A stretch of DNA of 64,000 bases from contig NC_086381.1 of NCBI RefSeq assembly GCF_036588685.1, positions 62,744,001 through 62,808,000 on the forward strand, given 5' to 3'. Shown here in pieces: positions 14,851 to 52,849 of the stretch. The DNA is from Mytilus trossulus (taxonomy: Eukaryota). Below the pieces are notes generated by a model, which made no database searches, had not been told where the DNA came from, and saw nothing but the letters and a program-made list of their open reading frames with translations. The translations under genes and the position numbers were made by a program. Positions within the stretch are counted from its first letter, which is position 1. Each line of letters begins with the position of its first letter.

Positions 14851-15060
14851 ACATACCAGAACTGAATATATTTACCCCTAAAATGTAGTCTAACAGAACA
14901 GGTACTGCAATTTGATAAAACACAAAAGTATTTTATCTTCATTTTATTTTCAATTGAATTTTACAATGAAACAAATGCAACTAAAATAAAAACTGCATAT
15001 AATAATAACAATGTAATGGAGTATCTAAATTACAACACTTATTTATGTTTTATTTTTCAG

Positions 15061-15429
15061 ATGTTTATTCTATTACTGTGAGAATAAATCAAAACATATC
15101 TGGAGTAATAGATGAAAGTGGTACACAAATAAAATGCTCATTCACAAGGCATAATGTTATTAAAATATTTGCCATCGAATTTAAAGCTGAAAATGAAACA
15201 GTTGTAACCATTTTACCAGACGATAAACCAAGATTTACAACAAAAGGACAGTATCTGGAAGACAGAGTGACAGTGATGAATATAAGTAAAGATTCTACGG
15301 AGGCTATTTTGACATTTATTTACCTTACCTGCACGGATCAAACTAATTATAGTTGTTCAGTTCTTTATCTTGACCAGAACAGTAAAACAGAAAGAAGAAA
15401 CTCAGGAATGTCAACTCTTTTCGTTAAAG
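15061..15429 (+). CDS. Gene B exon 2, Ig V-set domain
   Basis: Phase 1-1, 369 nt. B-strand Cys (QIKCSF), YLEDRVTV, DQTNYSC (DxxxYxC), STLFVK; acceptor tttttcAG, donor GTAAT. Confidence 0.9.
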
Positions 15430-16167
15430 GTAATAATAATGTAGGCGAATATTAGAAAGCTGACCATTAATATACAAACAATTTGTTTATAGAAAAAGAA
15501 ATTAAAATAAATATTGATCACATCTTGAAAATATCAAATTATAATATTCATATAACCCAAAAATTAGACTACCAGGATATGCTTTCATAATGCTTGTACT
15601 GATTAATTGTCTACGATATACAACATTTATCATAATGATAAGCAAACATAAATCATAGTTGATTAAACTTTAAGATTATCTATGGTAATTTTACATAACT
15701 TACGATTAAGTTGTATTCCTTTTTAAAGATGAAAAAAAATACCAAAAATACGATTTTCTTATCTTTTCATGTTGTGTTTGTTGAACTTGTTTCTTAAAAG
15801 AGTGATAAATTAATGGCAAATGAATTTACAGTTGAATAAACAGAGTAGAGCCATACAAGGGAAAGCCCTACTTAATTTGAAACAATCATTTACGGTACAC
15901 CGTTTTCGGAATTTATGTCATATTGCCTTAAACAGTATATATTTGTTTAGGAGCCAGCTGAAGGACGCCTCCGAGTGCGAGAATTTCTCGCTACATTGCA
16001 GACCTATTGGTATCCTTTTGCTGTTGTTTTTTCTATGGTCGGGTTGTTGTCTCTTTGACACATCCCCATTTCCATTCTCAATTTTGTGCATGTCAGTTAA
16101 CAAATGTATGGTTTATATCGTCTGCCGAGAAAACCAAGCTGACTAATTATAATTATTTATTTTGCAG

Positions 16168-16656
16168 TTCCACCTTCCAAACCTTATGTTATAACTATAG
16201 TTAGTTCACCAAAAGATGTCACAACTACCCCAACAACGTTAGAAAATGCGACTAATCCTCACGTTACTGCTCCACAAAATAGATTTAAAACGACTAATAG
16301 CCAGATCAATTCGAACCAGCACACAACAAATGACGAGCAGTTTAAACATGAACCGTCATTTAACTCCACCATCTTACAGATAGGAGATGAAATAACATTT
16401 ATTTGTAGTGGAAATGTTGGAAATCCACCAGGTGTATTCATCTGGCAAAAATATAGGCATGGCGAAAATCCAACAAATTATACAAATATAACTACAACTA
16501 TCCAGGAGTTATCTGATATTTGCTCCTACAATGGTACAAGTACCTTGAAAATCCATGTAACTGATGAGGACAACCAGGCCATCATTCGATGTAGTTTAAA
16601 TTCAACATTAGCGCAACCAAGTGTGTATACAGATACAAAACCACTGGAGGTTCAGT
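16168..16656 (+). CDS. Gene B exon 3, Ig C2 (CD80/nectin-like) domain with Thr/Asn-rich insert
   Basis: Phase 1-1, 489 nt open: VPPSKP...GDEITFICSGNVGNPPGVFIWQKY...STLKIHVTDEDNQAIIRC...LEVQ; donor GTAAGT. Confidence 0.9.
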
Positions 16657-17221
16657 GTAAGTAGTTGTTCATTTTCTTTTTAATTATAACATTCTGTTTT
16701 TTTAATAAATTGAAATTACAAAAGTGAAACAAAATTGTGAACACTAACTTAGTGTTGTCTAGAAATGTATGATCAGCTGGTATTGTACAGGCGTTCAAAT
16801 AGCATTACTTATTTTATACTTTGACGTTTATATAAGTCATAAAATATATAATTCTTGATTGCAATCCTGTTTCTACTGAACCATATACTACTACTGTAGT
16901 AAATGAATATGTTCACAATGCTCCTTTAAAAAACCCATCCACATGATCAAGATACCTGACATTAATATAAGTTGTCAGCTTTTCCATGTCAAGAGTAGTA
17001 TTCATAAATAAGACCAAAAAATATTCAGCTTGGATAATGTATGTATGTATACTATATGGTCTCCTCTACTGACTGCATAATAGCACTTTTATGATAAGAT
17101 TCAGTTTGTAGGTATAGTACAAGTTGAATTAAACGCATGTTACAGTTCATGCATGATGTATGTTAAGCATTATGTTCTGGTGTTAATCAATGATCGAATA
17201 AAATTTTTCTAATCTTAACAG

Positions 17222-20254: not shown

Positions 20255-21857
20255 ATAAACAAACAAAACCTTAGTGATATAGCATTCAATGTCATTAAAG
20301 AAACAAATGATTAGTTTTCTCTTTTGAATTGTTTTACATTGTTCTATCGGGGCCTTTTATAGCTGACTATGCGGTATGGGCTTTGCTCATTTTTGAAGGC
20401 CGTACGGTGACCTATAGTTGATAAAGTTTGTGTCATTTTGGTCTTTTGTAGATAGTTGTCTCATTGACAATCATACCACATCTTCTTTTTTATAGTAGGT
20501 AATTTTATAGGCATACCTTTATATTTGACATCTTCATCTTTTATTATGACAGATGATTCATACAGAGGCTCTGTGCACAAATGGACCATATGATACCTTT
20601 GACAACCAGTTGGAACTTCTGTTAAACGGCGCCGATGTTGTTGAGTTTTCGACAAACTTTGCGCACACTTCTAACTTAAAGATATTATGTAAATGTGTTG
20701 TGAATCATCTACGTTGTTATAATTGTGTTAAATGTATTAAATTTTTTAACCTTACAACTTGTCTTTTTATCAGGGAAAGTTCAGTTTTAACTATATTCTT
20801 ATTAAAGTAGAATTATGGTGTAATTGGCTATGGTTTAAATTTTGGTAAAATATTTCAGTGCAATTTTACCACCACTAAATGAAATACAAAATGTACCATT
20901 GATACGATGTGTCTGAGCGACATTCTCGCTGTTTGAGACATGAAATGTAATAGACATACGATTTTATCAGTTTCCTGATTGTTATATTCTGTCTGTGTGT
21001 CCATCTGATGATCACGTCGACGTACCCTGTTTTGATCAGTTTCAGGGGTTGTGTGATTCCCTTTTTTTCTATTTTGTTTAGATAAACAAAAAGGTATCAC
21101 TTTATTGATGATTCATATTCGATCATTTGTAATCGACTTTTGTCCCCAAACGAATTGTAATTGTGTTTGAAAAAATATATCAAATTCATTGGAATCAGCA
21201 CATTTACCGGAATATACGTGACAATGGTATTTTGAAATATTCATTTGAAATTTAAACGGACCTAAATAAATTGTATATAAAAAATTCCAATTTCTGTGGA
21301 TGATTTGTGAAAGTTCGGGCTATTTCTATAATATTTTATAACAATAGTTATCGTCAATATGCATCTTCTTAAGACACTTTGACATTAATTAGTTTCAATT
21401 TAAATCATCTCCGGAAAATATCAAATTAATACATATATAGTAATTTTGAAGATTTTAAAACTTAATACGCTCGTGAAACATAATGATTACAAGTATGAAA
21501 TATGACGTTAGTAATCGATAGCTGATAAGATGTGTCATGTATCAAATTGCATAGTCACATGCTTTGACAAACAATAATTTCTTTATCAGCTATTTATAAA
21601 TACAAAGTGTATTTGTATCTTTAACAATATAGTTTTGGCAAATTTACATTACTTTTGTCATAAGCTTAAGTAGTTCGTGACCACAAGTCAATAAAACCAC
21701 ACGTGTGTAATTGAAAATAATTGTAACACTAACCAATAAAGAGACGACTGGAAGACATTTTTATTAATATCAAATATATCTATCAATTATGGACTTTTGA
21801 CGAGGCCAAAATGTTATATATGAACCTGTTCAGATTATATTTACGGAAGACGAAGTC

Positions 21858-23735
21858 AAAAGTAAAATCACAAAAATACTGAACTCAGAGGAAAATCAAT
21901 TAGGAAAGTCCATAATCACATGGCAAAATCAAATAACAAAACGCGTCAAAAACGAATGGACAAGAACTGTCATATTCTTGACTTGGTACAGGCATTTTCA
22001 AATGTAGAAAATGGTGGATTAAACCTGGTTCTATAGCGCTAACCCTCTCATTTTAATAACAGTCTCATCAAATTCCGTTATATTTACATGATGCGTTAAA
22101 TAAACAGTCACAGTTAATAAAATAGTCAAAATATGGGTACATCAGTCATCATCGTATAACAATTTTAAAAGGGGACAATTTAACCGAACCCAAAAACATC
22201 TTCTATCTACGAACACATTAATTGATTTGAGTGTCTGACGTCAGAAAATTTTATACGTCACATAAATTTGTCGTTCAATGTGCATACAAACAGTTTTAAA
22301 ATTTACATAGGCAATGTAAGCATACAGGGTTAAAAAATCAAAAGTATGTAAGAATAAAATACAGAAATAGACCGATATTAAAACTAGTCCAAAAGTTATA
22401 GGTAGAATTTATGAGAATCCAAAAATAGTTAATACCACTACGCGATTAAATGATTTTGACGTTTGTGGTTCAACGTATATAGTAATTCATAATAGAAATA
22501 TATCATAATGTCATATAATAGACCAATATAATACTGACGGGATCTTTTAAATTACAGAGTCACGTAATAAGAAGAAAAGAAATACAAAAAGTCGCATATA
22601 CAAAACAAACCACAAAAAAATGAAAGCCAATACAAACACATTGACGAGATGTATAAGTACCGAGCCACGTCAAACTGATATCACATTAAACCATTCAACA
22701 GTAAAAGTAATATTAATACTAGAACAAAGACAAATGAAAGAACAATAAAACATGTTGTTAAGATGATAAACAACATCAATACGCATAATCTATACATCAA
22801 GACCATCGTGTATTATTTGAGAAGATGATACGGAATATTTATCAACAAGGTCTTGATACCTTCCGATGAACTTTTTTTAGAGAAAGGACGAGACGTTCTT
22901 TGACATATCCCTGGTTCATCAACTTTTTACTCAGACACTGATGACGTTTTACAAAGTCTGAGTAGGAGCTGCAAGCTCTTGAATATCGAATAAGTTGGGA
23001 AATATATATTCCATATGCAGGTGAAGTTGGTATATTGCTACAAAGGTGGGGGGAATTTATAATTTCAAAATTAAAATCGTCTCGTTTGTCATAGATTCTG
23101 GTACTGAGATGACTGTGTAAGTCAAATTCGAGATATAAGTATAAAAATGAGGCGGAGGAAGCTGTGTCTGTTGTTTCTTTGATCTCTAGTTCTGGGGGAT
23201 ATATCAATTGAACCCAATCAGAAAAGTTCGGATTGTTTATGGAAAGAACATCATCAATATATCTGAAAGTGCAATTAAATGATCTGGCTTCTTTGATCCT
23301 CTTGTTTTTTTACAAGTGTCTGGAGGAACTCCGATTCATATGAAAATAAGAAGAGGTCGGCAAGAAGAGTCGCACAGTTTGTTCCGATAGGAATGCCGAC
23401 AATTTGTTGGAAAAGTCTACCTCCAAACTCAACAAATATGTTGTCGATAAGAAACTCCAGCATACTGACAACTTGTTCTTTTGTGTAGCATGTTTTACCT
23501 TTTTGTTTGTCACTATTAACGAAATATGCCTTATGAAGTCCCAAAGTAATAAATTATAGCGTATGCTACCATTTTTATGTTGAAAGGCATTGTGGATAAT
23601 TTTTTGTAGGCCATTTTTTACTTTTACATGGGGAATGGTGGTATACAGGGTTGAAAAATCAAAAGTTTTGATGGAATTAATTTCAGAAAAAGACCGAGAT
23701 TTTAAATTGTCTAGATGTTCTTTAGAACTTCTAAA
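21858..23735 (-). mobile_element. Penelope-like retroelement (probably Naiad-type), 5'-truncated
   Basis: RT motifs KTFDFSTLYTTIPH, FLIDNIFVEFGGRLFQQIVGIPIGTNCATLLADLFL, RYIDDVLSINN, YDKRDDFNF and PAYGIYISQLIRY, with frameshifts; ~1 kb 3' tail. Confidence 0.85.
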
Positions 23736-24975
23736 TTATTCGTTTAATGTATAACCTTCCAACAGCCTTTCTTTCTTTGTATGCTTAGGTTTTATGTTAA
23801 AAGCGACGGCTTTTTTCGGCTGTAGTTTATTTCCTTCCATGCCGGCAAAGGTGTTTGCCATATTAATTTGTACTTGCATCTCGGTGGTCTTTTTGCTCAT
23901 GAATGCGACCTCATCTGCACATGCGCTAGTATTACAGAGAATATTTCCAATTTTACATCCTACATTTGATGTTTCCACCATATTAAGTAGAGGATTGGTG
24001 TAAAGCTGGTATGGGTCCGTACTTATAGGACCATTCCCTGGCGTACTCCTCGTAGTACATTAATTAGCTCGAAAGTTTTGTCATTCCATTTAACTGCACT
24101 TGTTGCAATTGTGTGCATACTCTGAATGAGTGTCTAGTGTTTCTAATCAATCCTGCATGATAGAGCCGCTTCATAAAATGGGAATGTATTACTACATCAA
24201 ATATAAAATAGAAGATGTGTTATGATTGCCAATGAGACAACTATCCACAAAAGACCAAAATGACACAGATATTAACAACTATAGGTCACCGTTCGGCCTT
24301 GCGTCCAGCAGTACACGTTCATATTCTTGATTATTATCTTTGGCTTCAAGGTATATTTCGTCAACCGGTAAAACTGCATTTGCCGGTCCTGAGCAGGCTG
24401 TAAATCTTCGTTGAGTTACACTTTGTGTTGTAAATACTGCTGGGTTGATCCTTACTATTACATTTGTTTCTATCTCTTTGTTTAACACAGGTAATACAGT
24501 GATTCCTCTGTTATTAATTGCTATGTTTTTTCGCCTTTGTTCCTAAACACGGGGGTGAGTAATCCCTTCTTTAGCATGTCTGGCACCTTGCTTTCTTTGA
24601 ATATTATGTTAATGAGGTTCAATAGCAACATTTCCATTTTTTTCCCTGCATGCAATATATGTTCGACAGTGTTTCCATAGATATCAGCTGATTTGCCTTT
24701 ATTAATTGATTCTTATCTTTCACCATCTTTGTAATTAATCCTATTTCATATTCTACTTCCTGGTGATATTGTCTATTCTCTAAGACTGTAGGTTCCTCTG
24801 ACTTTGCTAAGTTTCTAAAGTGCTGCCTGAAGCCTTCCACAACATTTTGTTCACCAGACATACATATGTCTCCTACATGCATGATAGCATTACCCCTGGA
24901 ATTTCTACTGCTTTTTACAAGTTGGTGGAATAGTTTTGTATCCTTTGTTCTTGTTTCCATAATGACCTCATGACG
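23736..24975 (-). mobile_element. Decayed non-LTR (RTE-X/L2-like) LINE RT fragment, interrupted by a short repeat at ~24203-24300
   Basis: KKGLLTPVF, RGITVLPVLNK, GVRQG and GCKIGNILCNTSACADEV (ADD motif) in order on the minus strand. Confidence 0.75.
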
Positions 24976-26609: not shown

Positions 26610-26883
26610 TGAGATGAATAATTGTCATAACACAATCACCTGCTTTTTCTTTTTAAATAAAAACAATTATTGTAAATTTTTTATTGTTCATTACTAGAAA
26701 TAGAAGGTTTGTAGAACTTCCTCATTCTTATCTTGATACGTGTGCTAGTTTTTAAAATCAATGAAACAGATGGTTGGTAAAAAACATATTTTTGTACTTC
26801 ACGAAGTAAAGACATTTTGATTGATACAATATACATTAAAGAGTTTTTCATTCATGACGATCGTTTGGATTAGCGTTTTCGTC
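26610..26883 (+). pseudogene. Truncated duplicate of gene C upstream region and exon 1
   Basis: Collinear with 27659-27943; ATG at 26854 gives MTIVWISVFV, then homology ends with no donor site. Confidence 0.7.
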
Positions 26884-27910: not shown

Positions 27911-27959
27911 ATGACTATTGTTTGGATAAGCGTGTTCCTCGTTTTGCTTTTTCGAAACG
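27911..27959 (+). CDS. Gene C (secreted Cys-rich protein, 198 aa) exon 1, signal peptide
   Basis: MTIVWISVFLVLLFRN plus phase-1 GTAAGT; joins to VFG-LCSQPC. Confidence 0.75.
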
Positions 27960-28558
27960 GTAAGTAATCTGTATCACCCTTCGTTTTTTTTTATTCTGAG
28001 AATTATTAAATAGTGCAATCATGATTTTGTTAGCTATGTATCATTTAGGACAACAGATAATCTTAAACTTATTTATTTTCACGACTTTCGTTGATTGAAA
28101 ATAACGCAAACATAAATCTTCGCTAATATGCTTATATATATTATGATTTTCCATAGAGACAGGGACCAATAAACGGCCCTTTAAAGGTTTTCTTTTGTAA
28201 AATTATTTTCTATTTTCTAATATCAAAATATATAAACATTTTACAATTAAATAGCATAATTGAAAAAATTATAAGTTAAATCATCAGGATTCTATCAAAT
28301 TGCGGCTTGTGTTTGTTTCACTTCCAGAAACACAATAATCGTTCTTTGAATTTTGTTCACCATGAATATAATCCCTACTATGGGAAGTGTGTTACTTGTC
28401 AATTGTTTGCTTACCTTCAAAATTTATTTCTTCATGTTTTATGCCTCTAATAGCAAGTAGGGGATGAAATTACACTGTGGCTAATGAATTTGAAAGTAGA
28501 GTAGTGATTTGTTTTGCTGAAAAAGGTAACAAATCAGCATTTCGGAAGCTGTCCCATA

Positions 28559-28720
28559 GTACTGGGGATTCGTTTGTTTCTTGGGTACCATTTTTTTGGT
28601 GGATTAAGGAAAATTTGCATCTTCGGAGATATTTAAATTCTTGCTATTGCCAAAAACTTTGAACACGATTATATAAAATATTTAATATCGTGGTTAACGA
28701 AAAATAACAAATTTACAGTG
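28559..28720. mobile_element. Degenerate TACTG...ACAGT MITE (family of 46725-46936)
   Basis: Similar termini and internal TTTT(C/G)GTGGATT motif. Confidence 0.4.
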
Positions 28721-31389
28721 GTATGTTACATACACGTTTATTGAAGTAAAGATTAATTAAACCCGTTTCGTTGCTTTTTTTTTTTTTTTTTTTTTTAAAT
28801 ATATCAAATTTAAGCAAACATGTTTAAAAGCAACAGAATTTTCAAAGTATAAGTAGAAAGGAAAATAAAATTCGTTTAAAATGAAAACCGCAAACATAGT
28901 ACTAGTGTGTCACATGTGTGAATGAGATATGAATTTGAAAAATACATTCTCTAATGTTGTGCGCTTTTTATTATTTCCATCTTGTTCAAGTGTGAGAGTA
29001 TATATATATGTTTCGTATCGTACTAAAGAGTTATAAGTTATACGCGAATAACATTAGGTTGTGTAACCTATCCATAAATATTGAAAGTAATTCTGGTATG
29101 TTTTCTCATGTCAATAATTAATTTCATATGTCACAACGGTCTGAGAATAAGAGGAGCGCAAACCCTACTCTTTTTTATGCGGGGATGGCTGTTGTACCCC
29201 TATTTTGACAATTTTACCTTTTCTTATTTGTTCACGCATAGTTGTAAATATAATGGAATTTGATGCGACTGTCATACGAGTGAGAGGTTTAGCGCTATAT
29301 AACCAGGTTCAACCAACCATTTTCTACAAATAAAAACGCCTGCATGTACCAAGTCAGTAATATGACAGTTGTTGTCTTTTCGTTTGATGTGTTTTATCAT
29401 TTAATTTTGCCGTTTTGAATTTCCTCGGAGTTCAGTATTTTTGTGATTTTTCTTTTTATCCTACATTTCTTTACAATAAGCTCGTTATTTCTGAACTCTT
29501 GAGATTTGTTTATCGTTGGATTTTAACCACTTTGTTGTTTAATTTGATAAATTATAATTCTGTTTTTAACAAATTTAAATAACCAAAGTTAATATCCAGC
29601 GATAGTCATGTCTTACTAGTTCTGAAACTATCAAGTTCCAACAGATGTATAACAAAAAGAGCAAATAACCCAAAGAAAAGATGAATATAAAAATAAAGAA
29701 TACAGAAAAATTTTCCACTTCGTTTCGATTATGATATTGACTAATAATAGAAAAAAAGTATTTGTGAACTGCCTTTTTTTAACGCTTGTTCTGTTTTAGT
29801 TAATCTATGAAACAGCTGGTTATGTTATGTTTTATTGTTTTACGTTTTTTAATTATATTCATTGATATATTAAATATGCTGACAAGCATTCCTTATTTTT
29901 GTACATGACTTTTTTTGCACTATTTATTTTTATTTTAAAGAGTAAAAATATTTAAAAAAAAACATAGTTTGTTAATGTTTGACACGGGAAGCTGACTTTT
30001 GACGTCAAACCGTTAAGATACAATATCAATGTTTTGTTTACTCTATTTTTGAAAGAAAATAATGTTTACACAAGCAACAAATTGATTAAGCACTTTAAAG
30101 TTTTAGCGCGTGGAAAACGCTTTGATTTATTTACCATCACAAGTATGCTTAAACGTTGAAATTTTGATAGCCATAGATTCGTAAATAGGATGAAACATCA
30201 CCATGCTTATGACATGAACATACATAAAGAGAATAGAAAAATGCATATAAGGTCAACTCAGGGAATTGGAACATTTCATGCTAAACTTTTTCATTGTTTC
30301 TTCACATGAAATCATGAGAAATGTATATTGCTCAAGACAAATTCTTTTTAATTTAATTTTAACACTAACGATGAACTCGCCCTAGAATCGATTTTAATTA
30401 CATTGGATTGAAATATATTAATTTGATTTATAAAAGTACCTTATCATTATTTATGCTATAGTACATGTAGTAGACGAATATAAAAATATCAATGAAAAAT
30501 GTAAATAAAACATATATTTCTTATTAATAGATTAATACCAACACAGAAGGTTTATTTTTCTACATATTTTATATAGACAAATCTGCTGGTATGTAGAAAT
30601 GAGCGAATAAATACAGCCAGATGATGAAATGCTCCTTGCATTTAGATAATGTTCATCACTTGACATGCCTTCATATGTCATTAGCGAAATTTAAAAAAAC
30701 AAAAATGAACCAAGGCCTGCATTGTTTTACCAAAGTTAAAATAAGACTTTGAAAATGCTAAAATGATCAATAAACAGTAATAAACTGTTCCATACGTTAC
30801 TACAGTTGTAGTACTTTAGTTCTTACACACTGTTATTTACTTATTGCATTATCAGTTTACCACTTGTCGTTCATCGTTCCAAATTATTGCGATGTTTTTA
30901 TTATTACGGGGTAGTAATCGCAATAGTTTAAACTCGTATTTTGAATTTCTTTTAATAATTATAACGATTATATAGAACTTGTTTCACCATCGCAAAAAAA
31001 AGAAACATCGCATTTTAGTCAAAAATGACATTATCACAATAACAAATGTACGTAATAATTTCTGAATTTACAGTACTGTATGCCATCCAATCTGGAGCCT
31101 TTGAGATTAACTCCAGTCTTTGGTAGGGTGAGAACATTATACTGTGGATTCATCATTTATCGTTGGATACACAAATTTACTGTATGATAAAATGCAGACT
31201 TTTGTGAAACCACGATATCAAATATCGCACGAAAATGCAAGTATTCTACATTGCACGAAACTTGGTAACCACGAAGGTAAAAACGAATCCCCTGAATTCA
31301 AACTCAGAGTCAAAATCAAACTACAAATGTCATAGCAAAACAACAAGCAATCAATATTAAGACAAAATTTAAGACTGAGCAACACCAAG

Positions 31390-33727
31390 CACAAGTCTAA
31401 AAGTCTGAAAAGACCAGTTTTAGTCTTAATTTGCATGAAATTTTACTCGACATTCTCCAAAAGTATGACTTGTGTCTAAATTTTTTTTGACAAATTATAA
31501 TTTATATTAAATTTGTATTAAATTTACTCGACATATTTTTGACATTCTGAATATGGTCTTAAAATTTCTTAACAAGTTCTTGACATTTGAATACTGTCTT
31601 GAAATTTCTTGACATATTCTCAACATTCTTTTTTTTTCTCAGTATGGCTTGACATGTTCTGAACATTTTGAATTGTGTCTTAAATTAACTTGACAGTTCT
31701 GAGCTCTACAAATCATGACCAATATTCGTGATATAACTTTAATCTTTATTTCTCTTTTTATGATAAACGCATGTTTTAAGTTACACTTCTTACGCCAAAA
31801 AAAAAATGAAAGTTGAGCATGTAAAATAATTGAAAATTTGGCTATGAAATCTAAAGCATAAAATAAATTAAATGTGTTTTTTTTAATAATTACACATTTT
31901 GTTTCTAAAATTTATTAATTAAATGATTACAACTAGTCATACTGTAGACATATTTCATTCAACATTCATAATATTCAATGTTAATACGGTAAATAATTGT
32001 TGTATACAAATGTGGTTTAAATACTAGTAAATAGCTAACCTTCATTCATTTAACAGAAGAAAAAATGTGTTATGTCATCTGTTGGAATACACATAGACAG
32101 GATGTTCCCTATAAAATTAAGATATTCCACACCCCAGAGTACACGAAACTGTCAAATAGAAATTACTGCAATCAGCAATACAACGTATCAGTTGACTGAC
32201 CATGCCACTACAATTTAAAAAGTTTGTGGAGAGATGAAAATGAAATTCATCATTTTGATAAAAAAAAAAGAAAAGAATTAAAATGGAGTTTCTTCATTAA
32301 AATTATGAAGTTAATTATTTTAACATAAAAGCAAATTGAATACTTTCCAAAGAATAAAAGAAAACTATTATCTACTCCACACAAACACAAAAGATGAATT
32401 ATGGGGTCCAAAGGAGACATATGGTCGCATTTTAAAACTGCCTACAAGACACATTTCAAATTTGACCTGCAGTTTTGTGAATGGCAAAAATCAAAAAGCT
32501 GGTTTCAGTAACTTCGACTTAGATTCCAAGTGAAAATAATTAATTAAATGTTTAATGAAAATAAATCAAAAGTAAACGTCATGAGGGATTATTCAGGGTA
32601 TTCTAACTCAAAAGGATATCTTACTATACAAAATTAATCCTTGATTCTTCAAAGTTTAGTTTACCAATAATAACAAGGAGTATATAATAGCAATAGAATG
32701 TCATAAACAGTGCAGAATAAGTCTGTTCACATTCACAGGGGAAATTTATTCTGTTGAGATAGTGTAGAAACATATTTAAGACTGTCAAGAGTATGTCGAG
32801 AAAAATTCTAACATTATTTAAAATATCAAGAATATGTCAAGACAGGTCGAGACAAATTTAAGACAGTCAATAATTGGTCGAGACTAATCTAGACTCTTAT
32901 CAAGAATGTGTCGAGACATATTCAAACATTATTTAGAATGTCAAGAATCTGTCAAGACATATTCAGACATTATTTAGAATGTCAAGAATCTGTCAAGACA
33001 TATTCAGACATTATTAAGAATGTCAAGAATATGTGAAAACAGATCAAGACAAATCTAAGACAGTCATGAATTGGTCGAGACTAATCCAGACTCTTATCAG
33101 AAATTTTAAGACAATGTTCATACTGTCAAGGCACTTGTCGAGAAAAGCCAAGAACCTTATTGGACAAATTCATATTATGTCAAGAAGTCATAAACAGTGC
33201 AGAATAAGTCTGTTCACATTCACAGGGGAAATTTATTCTGTTGAGATAGTGTAAAGGCATATTTAAGACTGTCAAGAGTATGTCGAGACAAATTCTAACA
33301 TTATTTAAAATATCAAGAATATGTCAAGACAGGTCGAGACAAATTTAAGACAGTCAATAATTGGTCGAGACTAATCTAGACTCTTATCAAGAATGTGTCG
33401 AGACATATTCAAACATTATTTAGAATGTCAAGAATCTGTCAAGACATATTCAGACATTATTAAGAATGTCAAGAATATGTGAAAACAGATCAAGACAAAT
33501 TTAAGACAGTCAAGAATTGGTCGAGACTAATCCAGACTCTTATCAGAAATTTTAAGACAATGTTCATACTGTCAAGGCACTTGTCGAGAAAAGCCAAGAA
33601 CCTTATTGGACAAATTCATATTATGTCAAGAATTTTTTTTTAATTATTCAGACAAATTAAGAATGTCGAGTAAAAATTCATGCAAATTCAGACAAAAAAT
33701 GGTCTTTTCAGACTTTTTGACTTTTGT
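31390..33727. mobile_element. Foldback-like non-autonomous DNA element with long TIRs and internal tandem arrays (gene C intron 1)
   Basis: About 65-bp imperfect TIRs (AAGTCTAAAAGTCTGAAAAGACC...TTTTACTCGACATTCT and its reverse complement at 33660-33723). Inward-facing TCTYGACA / TGTCRAGA subrepeats. TSD not resolved. Confidence 0.7.
32701..33633 (+). repeat. Near-identical tandem duplication (487 + ~446 bp) with 41-bp subunits
   Basis: TCATAAACAGTGCAGAATAAGTCTG begins at 32701 and at 33188; the first copy has one extra 41-bp unit. Confidence 0.9.
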
Positions 33728-34402
33728 ATTGTTATGAACTGTGCGTTAATTCTGCTTCACATTTGGCACGGGTTGCATTGATGAAGAAAGTACAATTTGG
33801 CGATAGCTCTCAATCGCGGATGTGACATGTTAGGAAAAGAGAAGGTAAAAGTGGTTAAATAATCGGACACATTGGTAGTTATCTATGAAATAAGGATTTC
33901 TCACCTTTCAACAAACTCATTTTTTCTTATCTTAGATTTGAACAATAACATTTGGCGATAGGTCATCATTTGAGATATTCGAGGCTTAAATTACATAAAT
34001 CTATTAACTTTTCAAACTAGGTTAAAAAAAGTATGTGGGTTATTCTGTCAAAAACATAAATAGGACTTAATGTTTTATCAACGTATTTAAATCAAGCTGC
34101 CATGTCAGTTTGTAAACTTTTCATTTCATTACGAAATCAGCCAATCAAATGTTCAATATATTATAAAAAATCCAACACTAATGATTGCATCTACCCAACC
34201 CTCCCCTACTTCTGGTTCTATAGCATACATTCCCCCCAAAACATGCATTACCATAACACAACCATAACATTTATTGAGGATTTTTTTAGCAAGCTTTACA
34301 TGCAAATCACGCATAATCAAATTAGTTTTTAAATGATTTAAATATATCATATTTATTTAATATCACATATATTCATATTGGATTCTTTTTCATTTTTATC
34401 AG

Positions 34403-34592
34403 TATTTGGATTGTGTTCGCAACCATGTTACAGACAAAAAACTATTTATGGAAGACTAGGAGATGATGGAAGTCCAGTAGTTCCAGGTCTCGTAAGAGAA
34501 AATAATCGAACCACTAGTGTTTTTACATTGCATGGAAGACTTCTCTTTTACCAGGAATGTTATGCAAGATCTGGACTTTTCACAGTTATAAA
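34403..34592 (+). CDS. Gene C exon 2
   Basis: Acceptor ttttatcAG; VFGLCSQPCYRQKTIYGRLGDDGSPVVPG...FYQECYARSGLFTVIK; phase 1 to 2; donor GTAAAC. Confidence 0.8.
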
Positions 34593-35342
34593 GTAAACAT
34601 ACCCTTCTCATTTCTCTAAAATGTAATACACAAATTATTTGAATTAGTCGTTGGGCAGGAAATGCCTACCCACAATATCACATAAATTCAACAGAGGTGA
34701 TAACCCTGTTGAATTTTGTTTCCATTTTATAACGAATCACTTTTTAACTGCTATTGTACATTATACAGCTTAATGATACTAGTAATTGAATATATGAATA
34801 AAACGTTGCTGTTGCATAATGAACAACGAATATGTTGTTATGCAAGAAGAATGAATTTCAGTTTTTGTCAACATAAGATTATAACTGAAAATATTTGAAT
34901 TGAACGTGATTTGAATTAAATCAGACAATGACAACTAATAGAATATATATTTGGTGACAAACAATGCTGTTATTTTTTTTATATTACAATTACATTGCAT
35001 CGGATGGACATATGAAAGTTAATGCCTCCACAACAATGCTCACGATAGCAAATTTGAAAGTCTAAATCTAGTGCAAGTATTGAACATTTAACTTACCAGG
35101 AAAGACGACGTGTATACCCCAACCCTGATTGTCAATCTTCTTTTTGAAAAGGTCACTTAATCAAAATTGTCCCATTTGTCTATTTTGACATTTGAATTCA
35201 TGACCCAAAAAACTTAGATAACACAACATATTTCAGAAGACATTTAAGTACATAAAACTACAAAGTTGAAATACGTAAAGAATTTTATATACTTTGACTT
35301 TTCTACATGCTATACACTGATTAAATTTGTTTTTATTTAAAG

Positions 35343-35437
35343 ACGGAATAATGGTACACACGATACATACTCATGCGGTAAAACTGTTGTCACAAATGGA
35401 TTTCCAGACGTCATAGCGTCATTTGTCACAGATTTAA
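35343..35437 (+). CDS. Gene C exon 3
   Basis: RNNGTHDTYSCGKTVVTNGFPDVIASFVTDL; phase 2 to 1; donor GTAAGA. Confidence 0.75.
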
Positions 35438-35943
35438 GTAAGATTTTTTTTTCGTTTTCTGAAAAGGTCAATAAGATACAATTGGTAAATTTAAAACTCA
35501 ACATAATGGATACAAATGACGTAATTTCTTCAAACAGCGTTTCAATGTTGAATTGAACCTTAAATCAAACCTGAAAGGGATTTTACTAGACATGTCATAT
35601 GTCCTGTTCCGTGAGTATGAACACGATTATGTTGGTATGTATAGTCATTTAAAATACCAATCTGGATTTAATACGAGCCCCAAACTATGAGGTGTGCTTG
35701 TTATTCGTGTACAATGGTGTAGTCTAGTCTTCATATTATGTGTGTTGTTGGATGTATTTTCCTCGACTTTTGAATTTCGTCATTGGGATATCAAAATTCT
35801 CTCAATTCATGAGTTTTTAATGTCCTGTTTGTATTTTCTTACCCCTTTTTTCTGTTTAAAACAAGCAATTTAATGTATTTGATCCTAAGTTAGGTTTGGT
35901 CATTGAATATAAAGGATATTATTCAGATTTCTGATAATTTCAG

Positions 35944-36018
35944 AGACCTTTGAGAAACCTCCTACGATATGTGATGTATGTGATGGTAATTTCATACCGA
36001 CTATGATTCTTCGAAAAG
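35944..36018 (+). CDS. Gene C exon 4
   Basis: KTFEKPPTICDVCDGNFIPTMILRK; phase 1-1; donor GTAAGC. Confidence 0.8.
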
Positions 36019-36330
36019 GTAAGCAACTCGTTTGAATATGAACTTTTACTTCCATGACACGCTATTATTTGTCTTATACATACTATTAGTCTCACTATAC
36101 ATAATTACATTTGCAAAAAAAAAACAACGTTTCATGTAATGCCATGTTTTGAAAACGTTAGCACCTCTTAATTGGTTTACTATCCAATCTTATACAAAGC
36201 AAACACCTTTTGTGACAAAAGAAGTCGCGTACAGTACGAATAACGTACAGTCAGCATTATATATAACCTATATTTGTCATTTGTCTGCAAATAAATTCAT
36301 CACAGATACAAGGATTAATATTTTATATTT

Positions 36331-36374
36331 ACGTCAGACGCGCGTTTTGTCTACAAAGGACTCATCAGTGACGC
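36331..36374 (-). ncRNA. Type I minimal hammerhead ribozyme (retrozyme family A), G12A variant
   Basis: Minus strand: GCGTCA-CTGATGA-GTCC tttgt AGAC-AAAA-C GCGC G-TC-TGACGT, within repeat ~36295-36440. Confidence 0.75.
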
Positions 36375-36532
36375 TCGAATAAAAAAATGTATAAAAGGAC
36401 AAATAGGATACGAAGTTATAGAGCATTGAGTACCAAGTTTCTGTTTAGAGAGAAGAACAGTTATTGATGATTGACAACAAATAATACAATTTACCATTAC
36501 AAACTATTTATATCAATTCACATTACTTTCAG

Positions 36533-36544
36533 ATGTCCAAGTCG
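36533..36544 (+). CDS. Gene C microexon (12 nt, DVQV)
   Basis: actttcAG|ATGTCCAAGTCG|GTAAGT, phase 1-1. Confidence 0.7.
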
Positions 36545-36821
36545 GTAAGTGTCTTTGTATATTTGATTTTATTTATAAAAAATTAGACACAGAACAGTCA
36601 CATAGCATTTCTGTGTAATAGTTTAAATATGTGAACTATATGATGTTGTTTTACAAATTGAAGGCATCAAACACCTTGTGTAAACATAGTTTTGAGTTAC
36701 TTAATAATAAGTTGACTTTTTAGACTGTGAACCTTTACTTTATAGAGTTTTACCATTTCATTACACTACTTTGTTCTTTATATTTTTGACGTACTTATAT
36801 TTTTAACATTATTTTTTTCAG

Positions 36822-36833
36822 GATGCAAGATTG
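36822..36833 (+). CDS. Gene C microexon (12 nt, GCKI)
   Basis: tttttttcAG|GATGCAAGATTG|GTAAGC, phase 1-1. Confidence 0.7.
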
Positions 36834-37484
36834 GTAAGCATTTAGTTTATTCATATGAACAAAATACGATTTACAATTTATTGTATCTTCATTGCAGCAT
36901 AAATTGACGGCTTTCACATTGAAAAATAGACCAGAACGTGCATCAATAACAACGGCACGCCTGAACATCGTAAAAGGAACGAAAATTATCTTTATATAAC
37001 TCGTAGTTTCATGATTCCGGCATAGAGTATAAAATGTATAAGTATTGTATGGTGTTGTGAAAGTGTTGATCATTTGCACAATACTGGAGGCTTCATACAA
37101 AACGTGCAAAACCAAAAATTAGAGAAGCATTTATTTGTTGTATAACAATTATCAATTAAAAAGTTTAGACTTCTCTACTTAAGGTTTAATCAGATTTTGC
37201 ATCCTGTTAGGCCAATATTCTTACTATTTGTTAAATTTATGTCTGTTATAAATCAAATGAAATAATAGAATGAATTTGGGTTTCCTTTTTAAATGGTTTT
37301 ACACTAGTAATTTTAGGGCCTTTTATATCTTTCTGTTTGGTGTGAGGCACGGCTCTATGATCAAGACCTTACTTTGGCCTACAATAGTTCACCTTTACAA
37401 ATTTGACTTGAATTGGTAGTTTTATCATTGGTAATGATACCAAATCTTCTAATATTTAATTGATGCCCGTATTTTTTGTTTCAG

Positions 37485-37499
37485 TTGAAATTCCTCAGG
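37485..37499 (+). CDS. Gene C microexon (15 nt, VEIPQ)
   Basis: ttgtttcAG|TTGAAATTCCTCAGG|GTAAGT, phase 1-1. Confidence 0.7.
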
Positions 37500-37794
37500 G
37501 TAAGTTTGTTATATTTGTACTTTCTTATATGAATAGTAGTGAACGAACAATTATTATGTGAATGAACGACATACTTTTTTTATAAAAAGCTCGTTATTTT
37601 GAAACAGAGTATCAGACATCTTGAGTAAATGATCAACTACGTTTTTAGGCTTATCAAATAGTTCGTTCGTTGACCTGGTTAATATTCCTCTATGTATACA
37701 TCGCTTAATAAAAACCTTTGCATGAATAGTCGTCAAAAGTAAGGCTTCATGCAATAGATAATAAATAATCAACCATTGTAATATTATTTTTTAG

Positions 37795-37943
37795 ATCCAG
37801 GATGCAATATTCCAGCTGTTTGTCCTGTACAGAAAGCACATCAAGTTCAATGCTCTAGGTGCCTTAAAATTCCAAAAGAAGTTTTGGATGAAGGTCTTTG
37901 CTGTGATTCAAAAACTAAACGCATCTATCGAACGAAAGAATAA
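37795..37943 (+). CDS. Gene C last exon, Cys-rich
   Basis: DPGCNIPAVCPVQKAHQVQCSRCLKIPKEVLDEGLCCDSKTKRIYRTKE*; total CDS 597 nt in frame. Confidence 0.8.
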
Positions 37944-47267: not shown

Positions 47268-47530
47268 TTACAAACAGCCTAAACATACACTCCGTCCTAT
47301 CAGACATTTTGAGTATACTTTCCAATCTGGACGATGGTATGTGGTCATCACCTGACCCCCTGCAATTAACTGACATTCCTTGATTTTTTTATTGAAGTTG
47401 AAACCAAAACAGGTACCAGAGGTGGAACAAAGTGTGGAACAAAATACACTAGTGATGGCTGTCGTTGTTCTAAGCAAGGTCATGTTGCCATACTGATTTG
47501 ATGTTCCACAAAAATGTCCAGTATACTGAC
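47268..47530 (-). CDS. Gene D last exon, PAN/apple domain
   Basis: Acceptor attttcAG, phase 1: GQYTGHFCG...SVFCSTLCSTSGTCFGFNFNKKIKECQL...DWKVYSKCLIGRSVCLGCL*. Confidence 0.85.
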
Positions 47531-48624
47531 CTGAAAATATAAACGAGTAAGAATTATTAAGAGATAATTGACAATTTTTGTGAAATCATTATATTTACTT
47601 ATATTTCTGATTTCATATATTTTCAATACAAACAGTGCTTCTACAAACATAAATATCGTTACATTATACAATTAGACTGGGTGCCCATAAATCTTTAAAA
47701 ATCACATATTTTCGGAGATAATTGTAGACTGTGAAATCATAAATAGAAATTAGAAAATAGACATTTTAAAAACAGTTAAATTACAAATGAAAAACCAGTT
47801 CAAAACACGAATAATGTTAGATTAAATCAGAAAAGGAACATCAATACCAAGTCCTGTTTATTTAATGTATAAAGATTATTTAAAGATTTTAATTTCAGCT
47901 TAAGATATACATCCCAACACAGATTTATGTATGATATTCAAAATAATTTGTCGCAATTTGGTAAGATGTTCTTTTTGATAGTATGCTTAAGTGTTAGTAT
48001 TCCATTTTAACTGTGTTGTGTTATGTGGTGCAATTCAGGATTGGTAGGTTTGATAGTCACGACAAAAACTCTACCAAAAGTAGTCTAAAACGTATACTTA
48101 ACTCACATTTGAGAAATTCTATTAGATTGTCAGACTCTATATACTCTATCGTAGACAGTGTGTAGATTCAACTTTAAAAATAACAAACGCAATTGATGCA
48201 TATAGTCAAAACTGTCAAATTACCATTGCAGATTGAATGACCGGTATCTACAAAGATGCGACCAGCTGTGAAAACCCACCGCATGGCAGACACAATGATT
48301 GTCCAATTAACAACAGAAAAGAAAAACGTGTACAAAAAATACAGGAAACATAAGGTTACACTGAAATCAAAATATAGGACACTTCATAAACAGCTAAACT
48401 TTGCCTGTACTTTTCAACCTATAATGAATAAAGTCCAAAACTATGGGAACATATGTTCATTTAAACATACTTAACATGCTTAACATATACACACTGTGTC
48501 AATTGTAAATAAATTGAAATTGTTATGTGGTGGCCAAACCGGTTTTGGGGGTGAGCACTACATTTTCCAAAAAAATCTGGAGGACAGCGAGACAAATTTA
48601 AATGATTTATATAAAATTGGTATG

Positions 48625-49985
48625 GACGAATACTGTTACATGTAGTGCAGTACACCATGTACACGGTAATGTTGTTTTGTTATGTTTCAATGGCATATTT
48701 ACCCAATTTCTGTATTGTACCTTAGACAGGGTTTCCCCTGGGTTAATTATTTTTTCGCCACCTCTTTCGCACAACAATATATTTTTCGCCACTGTATTTT
48801 TTTCCGCCAAGTAACAAACATATTTTTCGTTTAAATTTTTTTTTCTACTCCTACCCTAAATAAGATAAGTTTGCCCCATTGTTGTCTATGACTTTTATCT
48901 AAAACTTATCTTAGAGTCTACATTGTAATGATTAAACACTTTACAATTACTTTTTGTTAACTTAAAAGGGGGAAATTCATTATATATTTTAAACAACTTT
49001 TTCTAAAAAAAAAAAGGGTGCCACCAACTTTTTATAATAAATAAGATATCAGTCCCGGAATATAACAAAAACCGTAGAATACCAGAGATGTACAGTTCTT
49101 TAGGAAATTTTCTTCAATCGAAAACAGGTGCTCTTTTGGTCTAAGAAGTGGTTTTCACAACAAAACCAAAGATTTTATCACTTGAAATTGATCCCTCATT
49201 TAAGGTGTAGCCATAACATTGAAGGGTTACTCCCCTCCGAGGGGTTGTTCCTAAACCTTGGCATAGATTTCTTCATAACAACAGTTTTCTTTTCTAAACG
49301 ATCGTAAATAAAAACGTTGAGACGTAAAGCTATGCTTGAAATACGTGGTGTCAATCATATGACTTTAAAATACTCTCTCGAATCAATTATCTATATAAAA
49401 ATCAAATGATAAAGATTTAAATCGGAGATTTTTTCTTGCATTGAAACATTTTACGTAATAACAACTGGACTATCATTAAAAAAGCAGAGGAGAGGTAAAA
49501 AAAATCCCCGAACACTTGCGTCGCAAGTTGATAAATTATTTTTATGACAAGTGACGGACACCATTTGACCATACCATTTTCTCAAACAATACAATCAACA
49601 CTTTTTTTTAATTAATTCTTAGTTGTCGATAACTAAAAAGTGCAATCAGCTGATTATGGATTTTCTATCAAAATCTTAACGAGTTCCAGGTGAATTCCAA
49701 GTATTGTCTGATCAAGTTAAGTCCCAGAAACCCCAAAAAAGTAAATAAACAAGATAGATGAAAATAAATCGTTATTTATATTTCTTTCGCCAAATTCTTT
49801 CGTTAATGACGAATTTAAATCGCCACAATTATTTTTTTTCGCGAATTGCGAATAACCGCCAGCGGAAACCCTGACCTAAGACATAAGTTCACCTAGATAC
49901 ATGAAATTAACTGAAACTCGTAAATTAATACATTTTATGAAAATCCACACTAGCTTGTACTGCATTGCATGTAACAGTATTCGTC
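48625..49985. mobile_element. Small TIR element split by a hAT insertion
   Basis: About 30-bp TIRs GACGAATACTGTTACATGTAGTGCAGTACA / TGTACTGCATTGCATGTAACAGTATTCGTC. Confidence 0.65.
48727..49873. mobile_element. Non-autonomous hAT element (1147 bp)
   Basis: TIRs CAGGGTTTCC(C/G)CTGG; 8-bp TSD ACCTTAGA / ACCTAAGA. Confidence 0.8.
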
Positions 49986-50464
49986 AAATCATAAAAGTAG
50001 TGAACTACTAGGAATATTCAAAACGAGAGTCCCTATTCAAATGGCAAAATCAAATGCTCAAACACATCAAACGAATTCCTGACTTGGAACCGACATTTTC
50101 TTATGTACACAATGGTGGATTAAACTCTGATTTTACAGCAAGCTAGACCTCTCACTTCTATGACAGTCGCATTCAATTCCATAATATTGACAATGATGTG
50201 CGAACAAAACTGATAGACATAATAAGGAAACATGTAAATATTGGGGTACAACAGTCAACATTGTGTTATAATCTTAATCACTATAAAAACAAACAAATAT
50301 GTAATAAAGTAGCACTAAACGCTATAAAGACAAAGCACAAAAATGAAACACAAGAATTAAGAAATTTACTATAGAAAAATAACACAATGACGGGATGTAT
50401 AGTTACAGAGCCACGTCCTCTGTATGAAATAATATATTTTGTTATATTAATATACCTGACTCAC

Positions 50465-50950
50465 CTTTAAATTCTATCCTCCATATCCCAGTTATTCCCC
50501 AACCTGTTCTTATCCCTATTCCAGTTATATTAAATGGGGAAATATCTGTCCAATCAACGACTGAATTATCAGATGAGTCCTTCACTTCAATGTGCCCATC
50601 ACTTGACCATGTCAAGACAAACTCTTTAAAATCTATGCAACTAGTTATTCCAGGGGTTATTTTGACATAACTGTCACCTGGTCCGAACTTCCGTCGAAGG
50701 TATGTATTCTTGCCGTTGTTACTTCCTATCGCTATCTCATAAAAATTAGGAGATTTAAAATTTGCTGAAGATGACATATGAATGAAAACATTACTGCATG
50801 CCTTGATACTAAATCTGAATTCTTGAAATTCGGAATAAAACAGATCATAATCAGATAACTTGGTACAATAGTCATAAACATTCGGAGCATTCCATGCATC
50901 GAAGTTGCCAGCATCCTTTGTTTTTATCCATATTTCATTTAGAACACTAC
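50465..50950 (-). CDS. Gene D exon 2, farnesoic acid O-methyltransferase-like (Methyltransf_FA) domain
   Basis: Phase 1-1, 486 nt open: FRFSIKACSNVFI, FYEIAIGSNNG, SCIDFKEFVLTW, WTDISPFNITGIGIRTGWGITGIW; donor GTGAGT. Confidence 0.88.
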
Positions 50951-52849
50951 CTTAACATGAAAAAATAGGAAATACATTAGAACTGATCATTGATTGACAC
51001 TTCTTTGTGAGTTTGTTTACATTCTCACTGCTTTTTATTATTGATCACCATATTTTTACTTTTAAATTAACCTTAACTGCTCATATGAACCAATATAAAT
51101 GAAAACATTAAACAAAATTTATCATGGGAGTGTAAGCTACTAGCACCTATGTTGACTGTTTTCATCTACGTTTATTTATAACCAAGACAAAAATTTCCAT
51201 TGTAATTTGTTTTACCATATAGTTCCACCAAATTAATTTTGGATCCATATTGAATCATGGCAAATGGGTTTGAACCAACATCCAAACGATAAATGATTAT
51301 GTAATGAAAACATAATCGAATAACTAATGTTTTGTTTTATTTCTCCCAATATTATAAGCAACTAGACAATGGTCCATGCTTACTATTATCATTTTTAGAA
51401 ATGGGTCTTGTAAACTCTTTTTATTACTTATACTTGTTGTAATTTTATATTTGATCTATGAGTTTGACAGTCCCTCTGGTATATTTCGCCCCTCTTTATT
51501 GACTTTATTGTGGACGTCACATCCTTTTCACGTATTTATTTTTTTGGCAAAACACTTGAACTTCATTTGTGTATATATACTGTGAAAGTTTTGTATGCAT
51601 ATATTTATATATACATATGTATGTTACAGGACGTAGATAATGTAAAATGCAGAATAGTGACAAGAAAAAGTTATAGGATTTTCGCTGACAAATGCTCATA
51701 AGTTGTGTATTCATTCAAATTTGGGAGCTGTGACATGACAACGTTATGAAAACGCCGTCTTAACTTAATATGTACATGTAAAGTACGTTGTGACAGCGTT
51801 GAAGACGAGTAGTCAACTATAATAATAACTACTATAGTTATTTTGTAAAATTGAGGATGACAATGAATAATATGTCAAAGACAGCGGCCCGACCAAAGAG
51901 TAGAACACAACTGAAGGTCACGATTGCGTTTTCAACACGACGAAATCCAGCCCCAGAGGTGGGCTTCAGCTGGCCCTCCAATAAAAATGTGTACTTGTTC
52001 AGTGAAAATTGGCATCATACTAAACTCCAAAAATAAAAATGAACGAAAATTAAACATCATATTTAATAAAGGACAGAGGATCATATCGTGGGGCAGGTGC
52101 AAGTATTTGGCGGAGTTTTTCTAAAATCTTTATCCTCCCTATGTACCTCTAGCCAATATAGAAAAAAAAACCACTCATCAATATTCTACAAACTGCTGAG
52201 AGTCTGAAAAGATGTTCCTTGATAAGACTCAACAATAATCTCGACAGTATTTAACTACTCGACTCCGTCTTGACCAGTCTCGACTCAGTCTTAACCTGTC
52301 TAGACCAGTCTTGGCTGTCTCGACAAGTCTTGACTTAGTCTCGACCAGTTTTGACAAGTTTGAATCAGCGAATCTACATCAATTTTATATTGATCTTACA
52401 AATACAAGTTTTTTTTGTAGGTTGGTTGATTGCTGTCAAATTAAAGGATTTAATTAAAAGGTTATGATGAAAGTCTGGTAGTCACCATTAATTATTTCTA
52501 TAACGTCTTCAAATCAAGTTGGATTTAAAAAAAAAAACTCTTCAGCTTGCTGTCAAATTCAAAGATTTAATTGACAGATAAAGAAAGCTTTTTTTTTAGT
52601 TTGACTGATTTGAGATAGATACTTTTAAATTAAACATTTAAATTTGACAGCAATAAACCAAATTAGCAACTAACCTACTGCAGTATTGTGTAAGATCAAT
52701 ATTTAATTGAGATAGATGAACATCGAATGTGATTTAAAAAAGTATTACAAATTTTATCCTAACTGAATACTCCAGCTTTTTTTACCTACGAATAAAATAG
52801 AATTGGAATGAAATAAACCAAACTTCTAAACTACCCTTTCGTTTAAAAA

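What the first reader, a model, noticed from the sequence alone, without database searches (positions are those of the whole stretch)
27911..37943. Secreted Cys-rich protein with a cassette of three symmetric microexons, one carrying an odd cysteine
The eight-exon model gives 198 aa with no domain I recognise. Three consecutive 12/12/15-nt exons have strong splice sites, are all phase 1-1 and can be skipped in frame (up to 8 linker variants) between a CxxC segment and a C-terminal Cys-rich module. The full form has 13 Cys; skipping the GCKI microexon leaves 12, so splicing could toggle a free thiol or dimerisation. That microexon (cag|GATGCAAGATT) resembles the start of the last exon (ccag|GATGCAATATT), suggesting origin by duplication. 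The design recalls schistosome micro-exon genes, and such exons are usually missed by annotation.
Basis: partly seen in the sequence, partly recalled or inferred. Interest (0 to 1): 0.75.

Follow-up and report, generated by a model that had tools for sequence, protein, structure and literature searches.

The report
Three-microexon linker in mussel barrel protein
A mussel gene that public annotations get wrong splices three tiny exons (12, 12 and 15 bases) together into its main transcript, where they encode a short cysteine-bearing linker behind a predicted lipocalin-like barrel of a likely secreted protein; related mussel genes likely share this design, but skipping that would switch the extra cysteine on and off was not seen for this gene.

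Summary
The eight-exon model gives 198 aa and 13 Cys, and the three microexons are phase 1-1. Contigs of two probable RNA runs from two studies join exon 4 to the last exon through all three. No skipped form appeared in the rows shown, but contigs drop rare variants. Those contigs carry a stop at 37911, so the usual protein is 188 aa. The gene belongs to a Mytilus family I found no paper on: about 28 clusters at 50% identity, a 12-Cys scaffold and a predicted eight-stranded lipocalin-like barrel (Z up to 8.0, middling), with weak leads to DUF7042-7044. Paralogs about 35% identical carry matching linker blocks, and a linker Cys in 7 orthologue groups; many gene models drop these blocks. The cassette therefore looks old and mostly included rather than hypervariable. 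Microexons are only 7% of the coding sequence, so this is not a schistosome-type micro-exon gene. Skipping has indirect support only, from isoform models of 3 of 6 paralogous genes. A free thiol and dimerisation are untested. Duplication of the Cys microexon from the last exon's start is modestly supported.

The parts
27911..27959 (+). Exon 1, ATG and most of a predicted signal peptide; phase 1 donor
   Evidence: hydropathy; same N-terminus in orthologue models; joint to exon 2 not among rows shown
34403..34592 (+). Exon 2: CxxxC and first strands of the predicted barrel; N-glycosylation sequon at N51
   Evidence: (X1 contig covers it exactly)
35343..35437 (+). Exon 3: barrel strands, invariant C91, sequon at N83
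   Evidence: (joints on both sides)
35944..36018 (+). Exon 4: invariant PxxCxxC and last predicted barrel strand; phase 1-1
36533..36544 (+). Microexon 1, 12 nt, phase 1-1 (DVQV)
   Evidence: table 5c (X3; X4 with one synonymous change)
36822..36833 (+). Microexon 2, 12 nt, phase 1-1 (GCKI), carries C142, the 13th cysteine
   Evidence: table 5c, 65
37485..37499 (+). Microexon 3, 15 nt, phase 1-1 (VEIPQ)
   Evidence: table 5c; also in model VDH98182.1
37795..37943 (+). Last coding exon: six-Cys C-terminal module; second AG at 37799-37800 is a possible tandem acceptor (use not seen)
37911..37913 (+). AAA here, TAA in contigs of X1, X3, X4: stop-loss allele or assembly error adding 10 residues
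   Evidence: table 3, 47, 14, 17
26700..26881 (+). Decayed partial copy of the upstream region and first 27 nt of exon 1

Best explanation
This is a Mytilus gene for a likely secreted, disulfide-rich protein predicted to fold as a small lipocalin-like barrel plus a six-cysteine tail, and its three microexons are spliced in together to build the linker between them, likely as an old and mostly constitutive cassette shared across the gene family. Shown: gene structure, joint inclusion in two runs, the family and its 12-Cys scaffold. Inferred: secretion, the fold, microexon coding of the linker in paralogs, and function. Most likely function: an extracellular binding or carrier protein whose barrel is stapled by six conserved disulfides, with the microexon Cys (C142) available for a link to a second molecule; in two paralog groups an extra barrel Cys makes the count even and would take it up inside the chain. 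Minor skipping probably occurs in some family members, but the linker variation seems to be mainly evolutionary (gain, loss and change of modular exons between paralogs).
For: Inclusion of all three in X3 and X4, two studies. Family: 29 hits at E<=0.001, one a spurious repeat protein; all 15 hits for which a name was seen are Mytilus, 3 have no name, 11 were not looked up. Scaffold Cys conserved. Matching blocks in distant paralogs: DEAK/DCKV/VIMP (P0082, 36% identical), EVST/TCGE/VKLL (P0015), DLKV/ECGI (P0076), GCAI (P0017), DCNV (P0025). Cys in the cassette region in 11 of 36 rows, 7 orthologue groups; 13 mature Cys in 4 of these groups. All 7 sibling models lacking the Cys block in those groups' full-length sets are non-RefSeq predictions. 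Linker deletions between sibling models are 12-45 nt; all 11 pairs allow phase 1, 2 fit only phase 1, 2 are too diverged to tell. Models: pLDDT 74.9 and 77.1, pTM 0.71 and 0.74; lipocalins and lipocalin-like chains fill the top of the structure search, Z up to 8.0, rmsd 3.2, 109 aligned.
Against: Only contigs, which drop rare forms; 15 of 55 joints and 12 of 18 between-letter rows were shown, and this junction was not shown for X1 and X2. No paralog DNA could be read, so their microexons are inferred from protein models. Several acidic-clade groups show no linker Cys in any model (P0037/P0009, P0038/P0012, P0010, P0011, P0014), which may mean loss, skipping or incomplete models. RefSeq isoforms of 3 of 6 multi-isoform paralogs differ in the linker, which argues for some alternative splicing. 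Foldseek found nothing at E<=0.001 and Z of 7-8 is what unrelated models often reach. The folds are of stand-ins (P0006, P0082), not of this spliced protein; disulfide pairs were not visible. No ligand, tissue or function data.
Confidence: 0.6

Rival explanations
1. Regulated cassette: the microexons are alternatively spliced, so isoforms differ in linker length and in having a free thiol, switching monomer against disulfide-linked dimer or partner complex.
For: All three are symmetric and skippable in frame. RefSeq isoforms of paralogs differ in the linker: XP_071130622/623 by 15 nt; LOC127734079 X3 against X4/X5 by 18 nt with a junction residue that only phase 1 explains; XP_071180440/441 carry different 4-residue blocks, one with the Cys. 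Orthologue model VDH98182.1 holds microexon 3 only.
Against: No skipping joint in the rows shown; single contigs in X3 and X4 run through all three. The short orthologue models are predictions from pipelines that commonly miss such exons (my knowledge). LOC127734079 isoforms differ along their whole length and seem to mix tandem copies; XP_071180440/441 are both truncated models. Phase symmetry is also expected of constitutive exons in a gene where 6 of 7 introns are phase 1.
Confidence: 0.22
2. The protein is a one-repeat offshoot of the DUF7042/7043/7044 repeat-barrel proteins; the linker Cys is a relic of the start of the next repeat or of a duplicated last-exon start, tolerated and without a role of its own.
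For: Two atlas queries put DUF7042-7044 clusters first by features (0.85, 0.86) and the top 4 structure rows (TM 0.58-0.62 over 121-125 residues); DUF7044 at E=0.097 in 1 of 44 members; microexon 2 resembles the last exon's start. The ancestry part is compatible with the best explanation.
Against: All these scores are under the tools' bars. A Cys kept in the linker of 7 orthologue groups of about 30-39% identity, and matched by an extra barrel Cys in two of them, is not what a functionless relic predicts.
Confidence: 0.13
3. A schistosome-type micro-exon gene generating antigenic or recognition diversity by combinatorial skipping.
For: Signal peptide, symmetric microexons, multigene family.
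Against: Microexons are 39 nt, 7% of the coding sequence, against up to 75% in MEGs (PMC4015677, passages); a folded conserved domain makes up most of the protein; no splice variants seen.
Confidence: 0.05

Closest known systems
Lipocalins / calycin superfamily (ApoD, RBP4, tick and insect lipocalins, crustacyanin, Blc)
   Same: Small, probably secreted, disulfide-bearing; predicted eight-stranded antiparallel barrel; alignments of the P0082 model run from residue 23 to 155-156, past the cassette, so the cassette likely lies where lipocalins have their post-barrel helix; Arg at the end of the last strand (R135).
   Different: No Pfam lipocalin hit in 44 members; 3-13% identity; the window protein lacks Gly-X-Trp on strand A; extra six-Cys tail; ligand cavity not tested.
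DUF7042/DUF7043/DUF7044 proteins (PF23069-PF23071) of arthropods, molluscs and rotifers
   Same: Top atlas hits by features and by predicted structure; weak DUF7044 match in one member.
   Different: The structure hits are 614-700-aa multi-domain proteins; this family has one barrel and a short tail; all scores under the bars for naming a family.
Schistosoma micro-exon genes (MEGs) and SmVAL6
   Same: Signal peptide and consecutive symmetric microexons; SmVAL6 also has a folded part followed by small exons (PMC4015677, passages).
   Different: Three microexons, 7% of coding sequence; inclusion, not skipping, is what was seen; blocks are conserved between paralogs.
Uncharacterised Mytilus models VDH98182.1, CAC5360329.1, CAC5394921.1 (labelled ADAM22), XP_071123473.1, XP_071123477.1
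   Same: Orthologues or recent copies, 82-96% identical.
   Different: They hold none or one of the microexons, or read into the intron after exon 4; the ADAM22 label has no support (no Pfam hit).

Membership tests
Schistosome-type micro-exon gene (MEG) | Microexons make up most of the coding sequence | tested here: not met
   39 nt, 7%; up to 75% in MEGs
Schistosome-type micro-exon gene (MEG) | Symmetric exons, skippable in frame | tested here: met
Schistosome-type micro-exon gene (MEG) | Signal peptide | tested here: met
   hydrophobic N-terminus and predicted helix 2-18; no dedicated predictor was available
Schistosome-type micro-exon gene (MEG) | Many splice variants by exon skipping | tested here: inconclusive
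   only the all-included form seen, in contigs that drop rare variants
Lipocalin / calycin | Eight-stranded antiparallel barrel | tested here: inconclusive
   8 strands in the P0082 model, 7 listed in the P0006 model; Z 8.0 and 6.9, middling; Foldseek no hit
Lipocalin / calycin | Gly-X-Trp on strand A (PMC3367933, passages) | tested here: not met
   window protein and its orthologues have neither Gly nor Trp there; a Gly-X-Trp occurs in 1 of 44 rows (P0026) and Gly-X-Tyr/Phe in some of the basic clade
Lipocalin / calycin | Arg on strand H | tested here: inconclusive
   R135 ends the predicted last strand; many paralogs have Lys or another residue; its contacts were not visible
Lipocalin / calycin | Match to family profiles | tested here: inconclusive
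   no lipocalin family listed for 44 members; profiles miss remote members
Lipocalin / calycin | Internal cavity that binds a hydrophobic ligand | not testable with these tools
   no coordinates or binding data
DUF7042/7043/7044 | Pfam score above the curated cut-off | tested here: not met
   best 13.3 bits against 27, 1 of 44 members
DUF7042/7043/7044 | Same fold as one repeat | tested here: inconclusive
   TM 0.58-0.62 between predicted models, under the tool's bar

The most novel reading that the evidence does not exclude
A mussel-specific family of secreted lipocalin-like proteins uses an inherited three-microexon cassette as a splicing-controlled redox switch: including the 12-nt Cys exon adds a free thiol that links the protein to itself or to a partner in mucus, byssus or haemolymph, skipping it gives a monomer, and the Cys exon itself was born by duplicating the last exon's acceptor.
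Probability: 0.15. Interest if true: 0.72.

Novelty: new variant of a known kind. Interest (0 to 1): 0.42.

Why it matters
It shows a whole family of mussel proteins whose public models are often wrong at one spot because of hidden microexons, and gives an RNA-supported structure for one member. Microexon clusters in secreted proteins are best known from parasitic flatworms; a conserved cassette in a bivalve that delivers one cysteine is a clean test case for whether microexons tune disulfide chemistry, and for exon birth by acceptor duplication. If inclusion is constant, it remains a useful annotation fix and a new barrel-protein family, not a new mechanism.

Tried and rejected
No whole genome was held, so paralog DNA could not be read. 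No relative in metagenome contigs: 197 pattern matches, none confirmed; the exact microexon 2 pattern gave 0. No run was on record as RNA; all 4 are RNA by guess. Pfam gave nothing for the two exon pieces or four orthologues; PDB sequence searches gave nothing significant; Foldseek nothing at E<=0.001. A two-copy complex prediction of paralog P0082 returned no verdict and is not used. The C-terminal module was not folded alone, so its fold is untested. No second full copy of the gene in the window. The read-through signature in truncated paralog models (14 of 16 have a residue pair fitting a phase 1 donor) is a loose pattern that chance would often give; only its position after 4-residue blocks is suggestive, and it is verified against DNA only for P0003/P0007. 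The tree's linker-Cys label is not clustered (10 changes, shuffled mean 10.8) but this mixes annotation gaps with biology, and 2 of the 13 labelled rows have the Cys before the cassette. P0024 was dropped as a spurious repeat hit; P0013, P0028, P0031, P0032 and P0036 were left out of alignment A2 as fragments or fusions. A UGC motif occurs upstream of microexon 3 only: no case for a shared regulator. Paper searches that found no description of this family: DUF7042; microexon + Mytilus, 2 unrelated listings; DDGLCC; six accessions; subscription journals and supplements were not searched, so mussel proteomics tables may list members. Earlier-findings look-ups by sequence, place and the first word set were blank.

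Full report
Setting. The window is AT-rich animal DNA. The gene's closest relatives are 82-96% identical proteins of Mytilus galloprovincialis, M. edulis and M. coruscus, so it is a Mytilus mussel. No whole genome was held.

Observation. The eight exons translate to 198 aa with 13 Cys; all seven introns are GT-AG, six in phase 1; the microexons at 36533-36544, 36822-36833 and 37485-37499 are phase 1-1 and every combination keeps the frame. Loose splice patterns give 88 candidates in the window, so sequence alone is not proof; a strict pattern tuned on these sites finds only these three, against 0.075 expected. Four public runs, RNA by guess, were laid as contigs. In X3 (study P1) and X4 (study P2) a contig joins 36018 to the last exon with 38 letters between that are the three microexons in order (the last G is shared with the acceptor); X4 has one synonymous change. 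Joints across introns 2 and 3 are seen as well. No joint that skips a microexon is among the rows shown, but only 15 of 55 joints and 12 of 18 between-letter rows were printed, this junction was not shown for X1 and X2, and contigs drop rare variants. The same runs read T at 37911 in all covering contigs (X1, X3, X4), a stop after CCDS; three orthologue models end there too. The common protein is therefore 188 aa, and the last ten residues belong to this allele or to an assembly error.

Annotation. None of five near-full orthologue models holds the cassette: two join exon 4 straight to the last exon, one holds microexon 3 only, two read into the intron after exon 4. For the last two the read-through residues match the window's donor exactly. 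These are predictions, not evidence of skipping.

Family. A search of 1.84 billion representatives gave 29 hits, one spurious. Names were seen for 15, all Mytilus; 3 have none; 11 were not looked up. Members share six Cys in an N-terminal module ending in PxxCxxC and six in a tail starting CNxP. Length variation sits in the linker between them, in blocks. Paralogs 33-39% identical show blocks that match ours in size and pattern, for example DEAK/DCKV/VIMP in P0082 and EVST/TCGE/VKLL in P0015. A Cys lies in the cassette region in 11 of 36 rows, in 7 orthologue groups; the mature count is odd (13) in four groups, even in the P0030 group, which has an extra barrel Cys, and would be even in the P0017/P0081 group. 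The seven full-length sibling models that lack the Cys block in these groups are all non-RefSeq predictions; that RefSeq models lean on RNA evidence is my own knowledge. Deletions between sibling models are 12, 15, 18, 24, 39 or 45 nt; all 11 pairs allow phase 1, two fit only phase 1, two are too diverged to judge. A second, basic clade appears to have 15/18/12-nt blocks, and one unnamed member has a 385-residue linker. All this is inference from protein models; no paralog DNA was read. Against constancy: five acidic groups show no linker Cys, and isoforms of 3 of 6 multi-isoform RefSeq genes differ in the linker, though one locus seems to mix tandem copies and one pair is truncated.

Fold. 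The spliced window protein was not folded; two stand-ins were. P0006 (96% identical, microexon 3 only) gave pLDDT 74.9, pTM 0.71; P0082 (three blocks) gave 77.1 and 0.74 with eight strands and a linker near pLDDT 57. Foldseek found nothing significant. The wide structural search ranked lipocalins and lipocalin-like barrels first for both, Z up to 6.9 and 8.0; the tool warns that such Z values can reflect a common arrangement. For classical lipocalins the aligned range runs to model residue 155-156, beyond the cassette, which suggests that the microexons code the stretch where lipocalins have a helix after the barrel; ranges give end points only. The calycin Gly-X-Trp motif (PMC3367933, passages) is missing in the window protein, so I do not file it as a lipocalin. 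The atlas points twice to DUF7042-7044 proteins, by features (0.85-0.86) and structure (TM 0.58-0.62), all under the bars; Pfam gives one sub-threshold DUF7044 match among 44 members. This is a lead for ancestry.

Origin of microexon 2. With its acceptor it aligns to the last exon's start at 29 of 36 positions with four gap columns, the best of 21 acceptor pairs in the gene (35 against 9-22) and the best self-match of the region (E=0.10 there). Part of this is pyrimidine tract and shared coding. Duplication is plausible, but a family-wide old Cys block and a still visible intron likeness sit uneasily together; later replacement or conversion in this lineage could reconcile them. Unresolved.

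Mechanism. Best reading (0.6): a likely secreted barrel protein that binds a small ligand or a partner, held by six disulfides, whose linker is built from an old cassette that is normally included; C142 is left for an intermolecular bond. The rival of a regulated thiol switch (0.22) is open but unsupported for this gene. A MEG-type diversifier is unlikely: microexons are 7% of the coding sequence against up to 75% (PMC4015677, passages).

Literature. I read passages of PMC4015677 and PMC3367933; all other papers were seen as search listings only. Nine searches found no description of this family or of microexons in mussels; subscription papers and supplements were outside the search.

Verdict. 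Real, RNA-supported, unannotated microexon cassette in an apparently undescribed mussel family; the switch idea is untested. New variant of a known kind, interest 0.42.

Noticed in passing
window 26700-26881 (+): Decayed copy of the gene's upstream region and the first 27 nt of exon 1, about 1 kb before the real start; similarity stops abruptly, next to repeat-like sequence. Sign of a partial tandem duplication.
   Followed up: partly
window 37911-37913: Stop-loss relative to three runs and three orthologue models, adding ten mostly basic residues.
   Followed up: partly
window 20944-21078 (+): Weak match to the family's C-terminal Cys module (E=0.086; best reversed control 1.3; DNA score at the 95th percentile of random pieces). 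Chance or a decayed exon.
   Followed up: partly
family linkers, proteins P0082, P0034, P0022, P0069 and the window gene: The residue before Pro in the last linker block often equals the one in CNxP of the last exon (I/I, M/M, V/V, R/R), hinting at an internal repeat or co-variation; few independent groups.
   Followed up: no
protein P0025 (unnamed, 551 aa): Family member whose linker is expanded to 385 residues with Thr-rich repeats between the Cys block and the last block. P0036 has the barrel fused behind a VWA domain.
   Followed up: no
window 15009-16664 (+): Exons of an immunoglobulin-domain protein (C2-set E=1e-07).
   Followed up: no
window 47268-50951 (-): Exons with a farnesoic acid O-methyltransferase-like domain (E=1.8e-20) and a PAN domain (E=1e-04), probably one gene.
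   Followed up: no
window 31390-33730: Inside intron 1: 41-nt tandem repeats with 250-340-nt duplicated blocks, flanked by inverted copies (31390-31456 and 33660-33726), like a non-autonomous transposon.
   Followed up: no
window 22842-24975 (-) and 62445-63331 (+): Broken retrotransposon-like frames (endonuclease domain E=3e-04 for the second; the first by appearance only).
   Followed up: no
window 35590-35610 (+): A 21-nt TAG..GTGAG candidate in intron 3 with a weak acceptor; contigs join exon 3 to exon 4 without it.
   Followed up: partly
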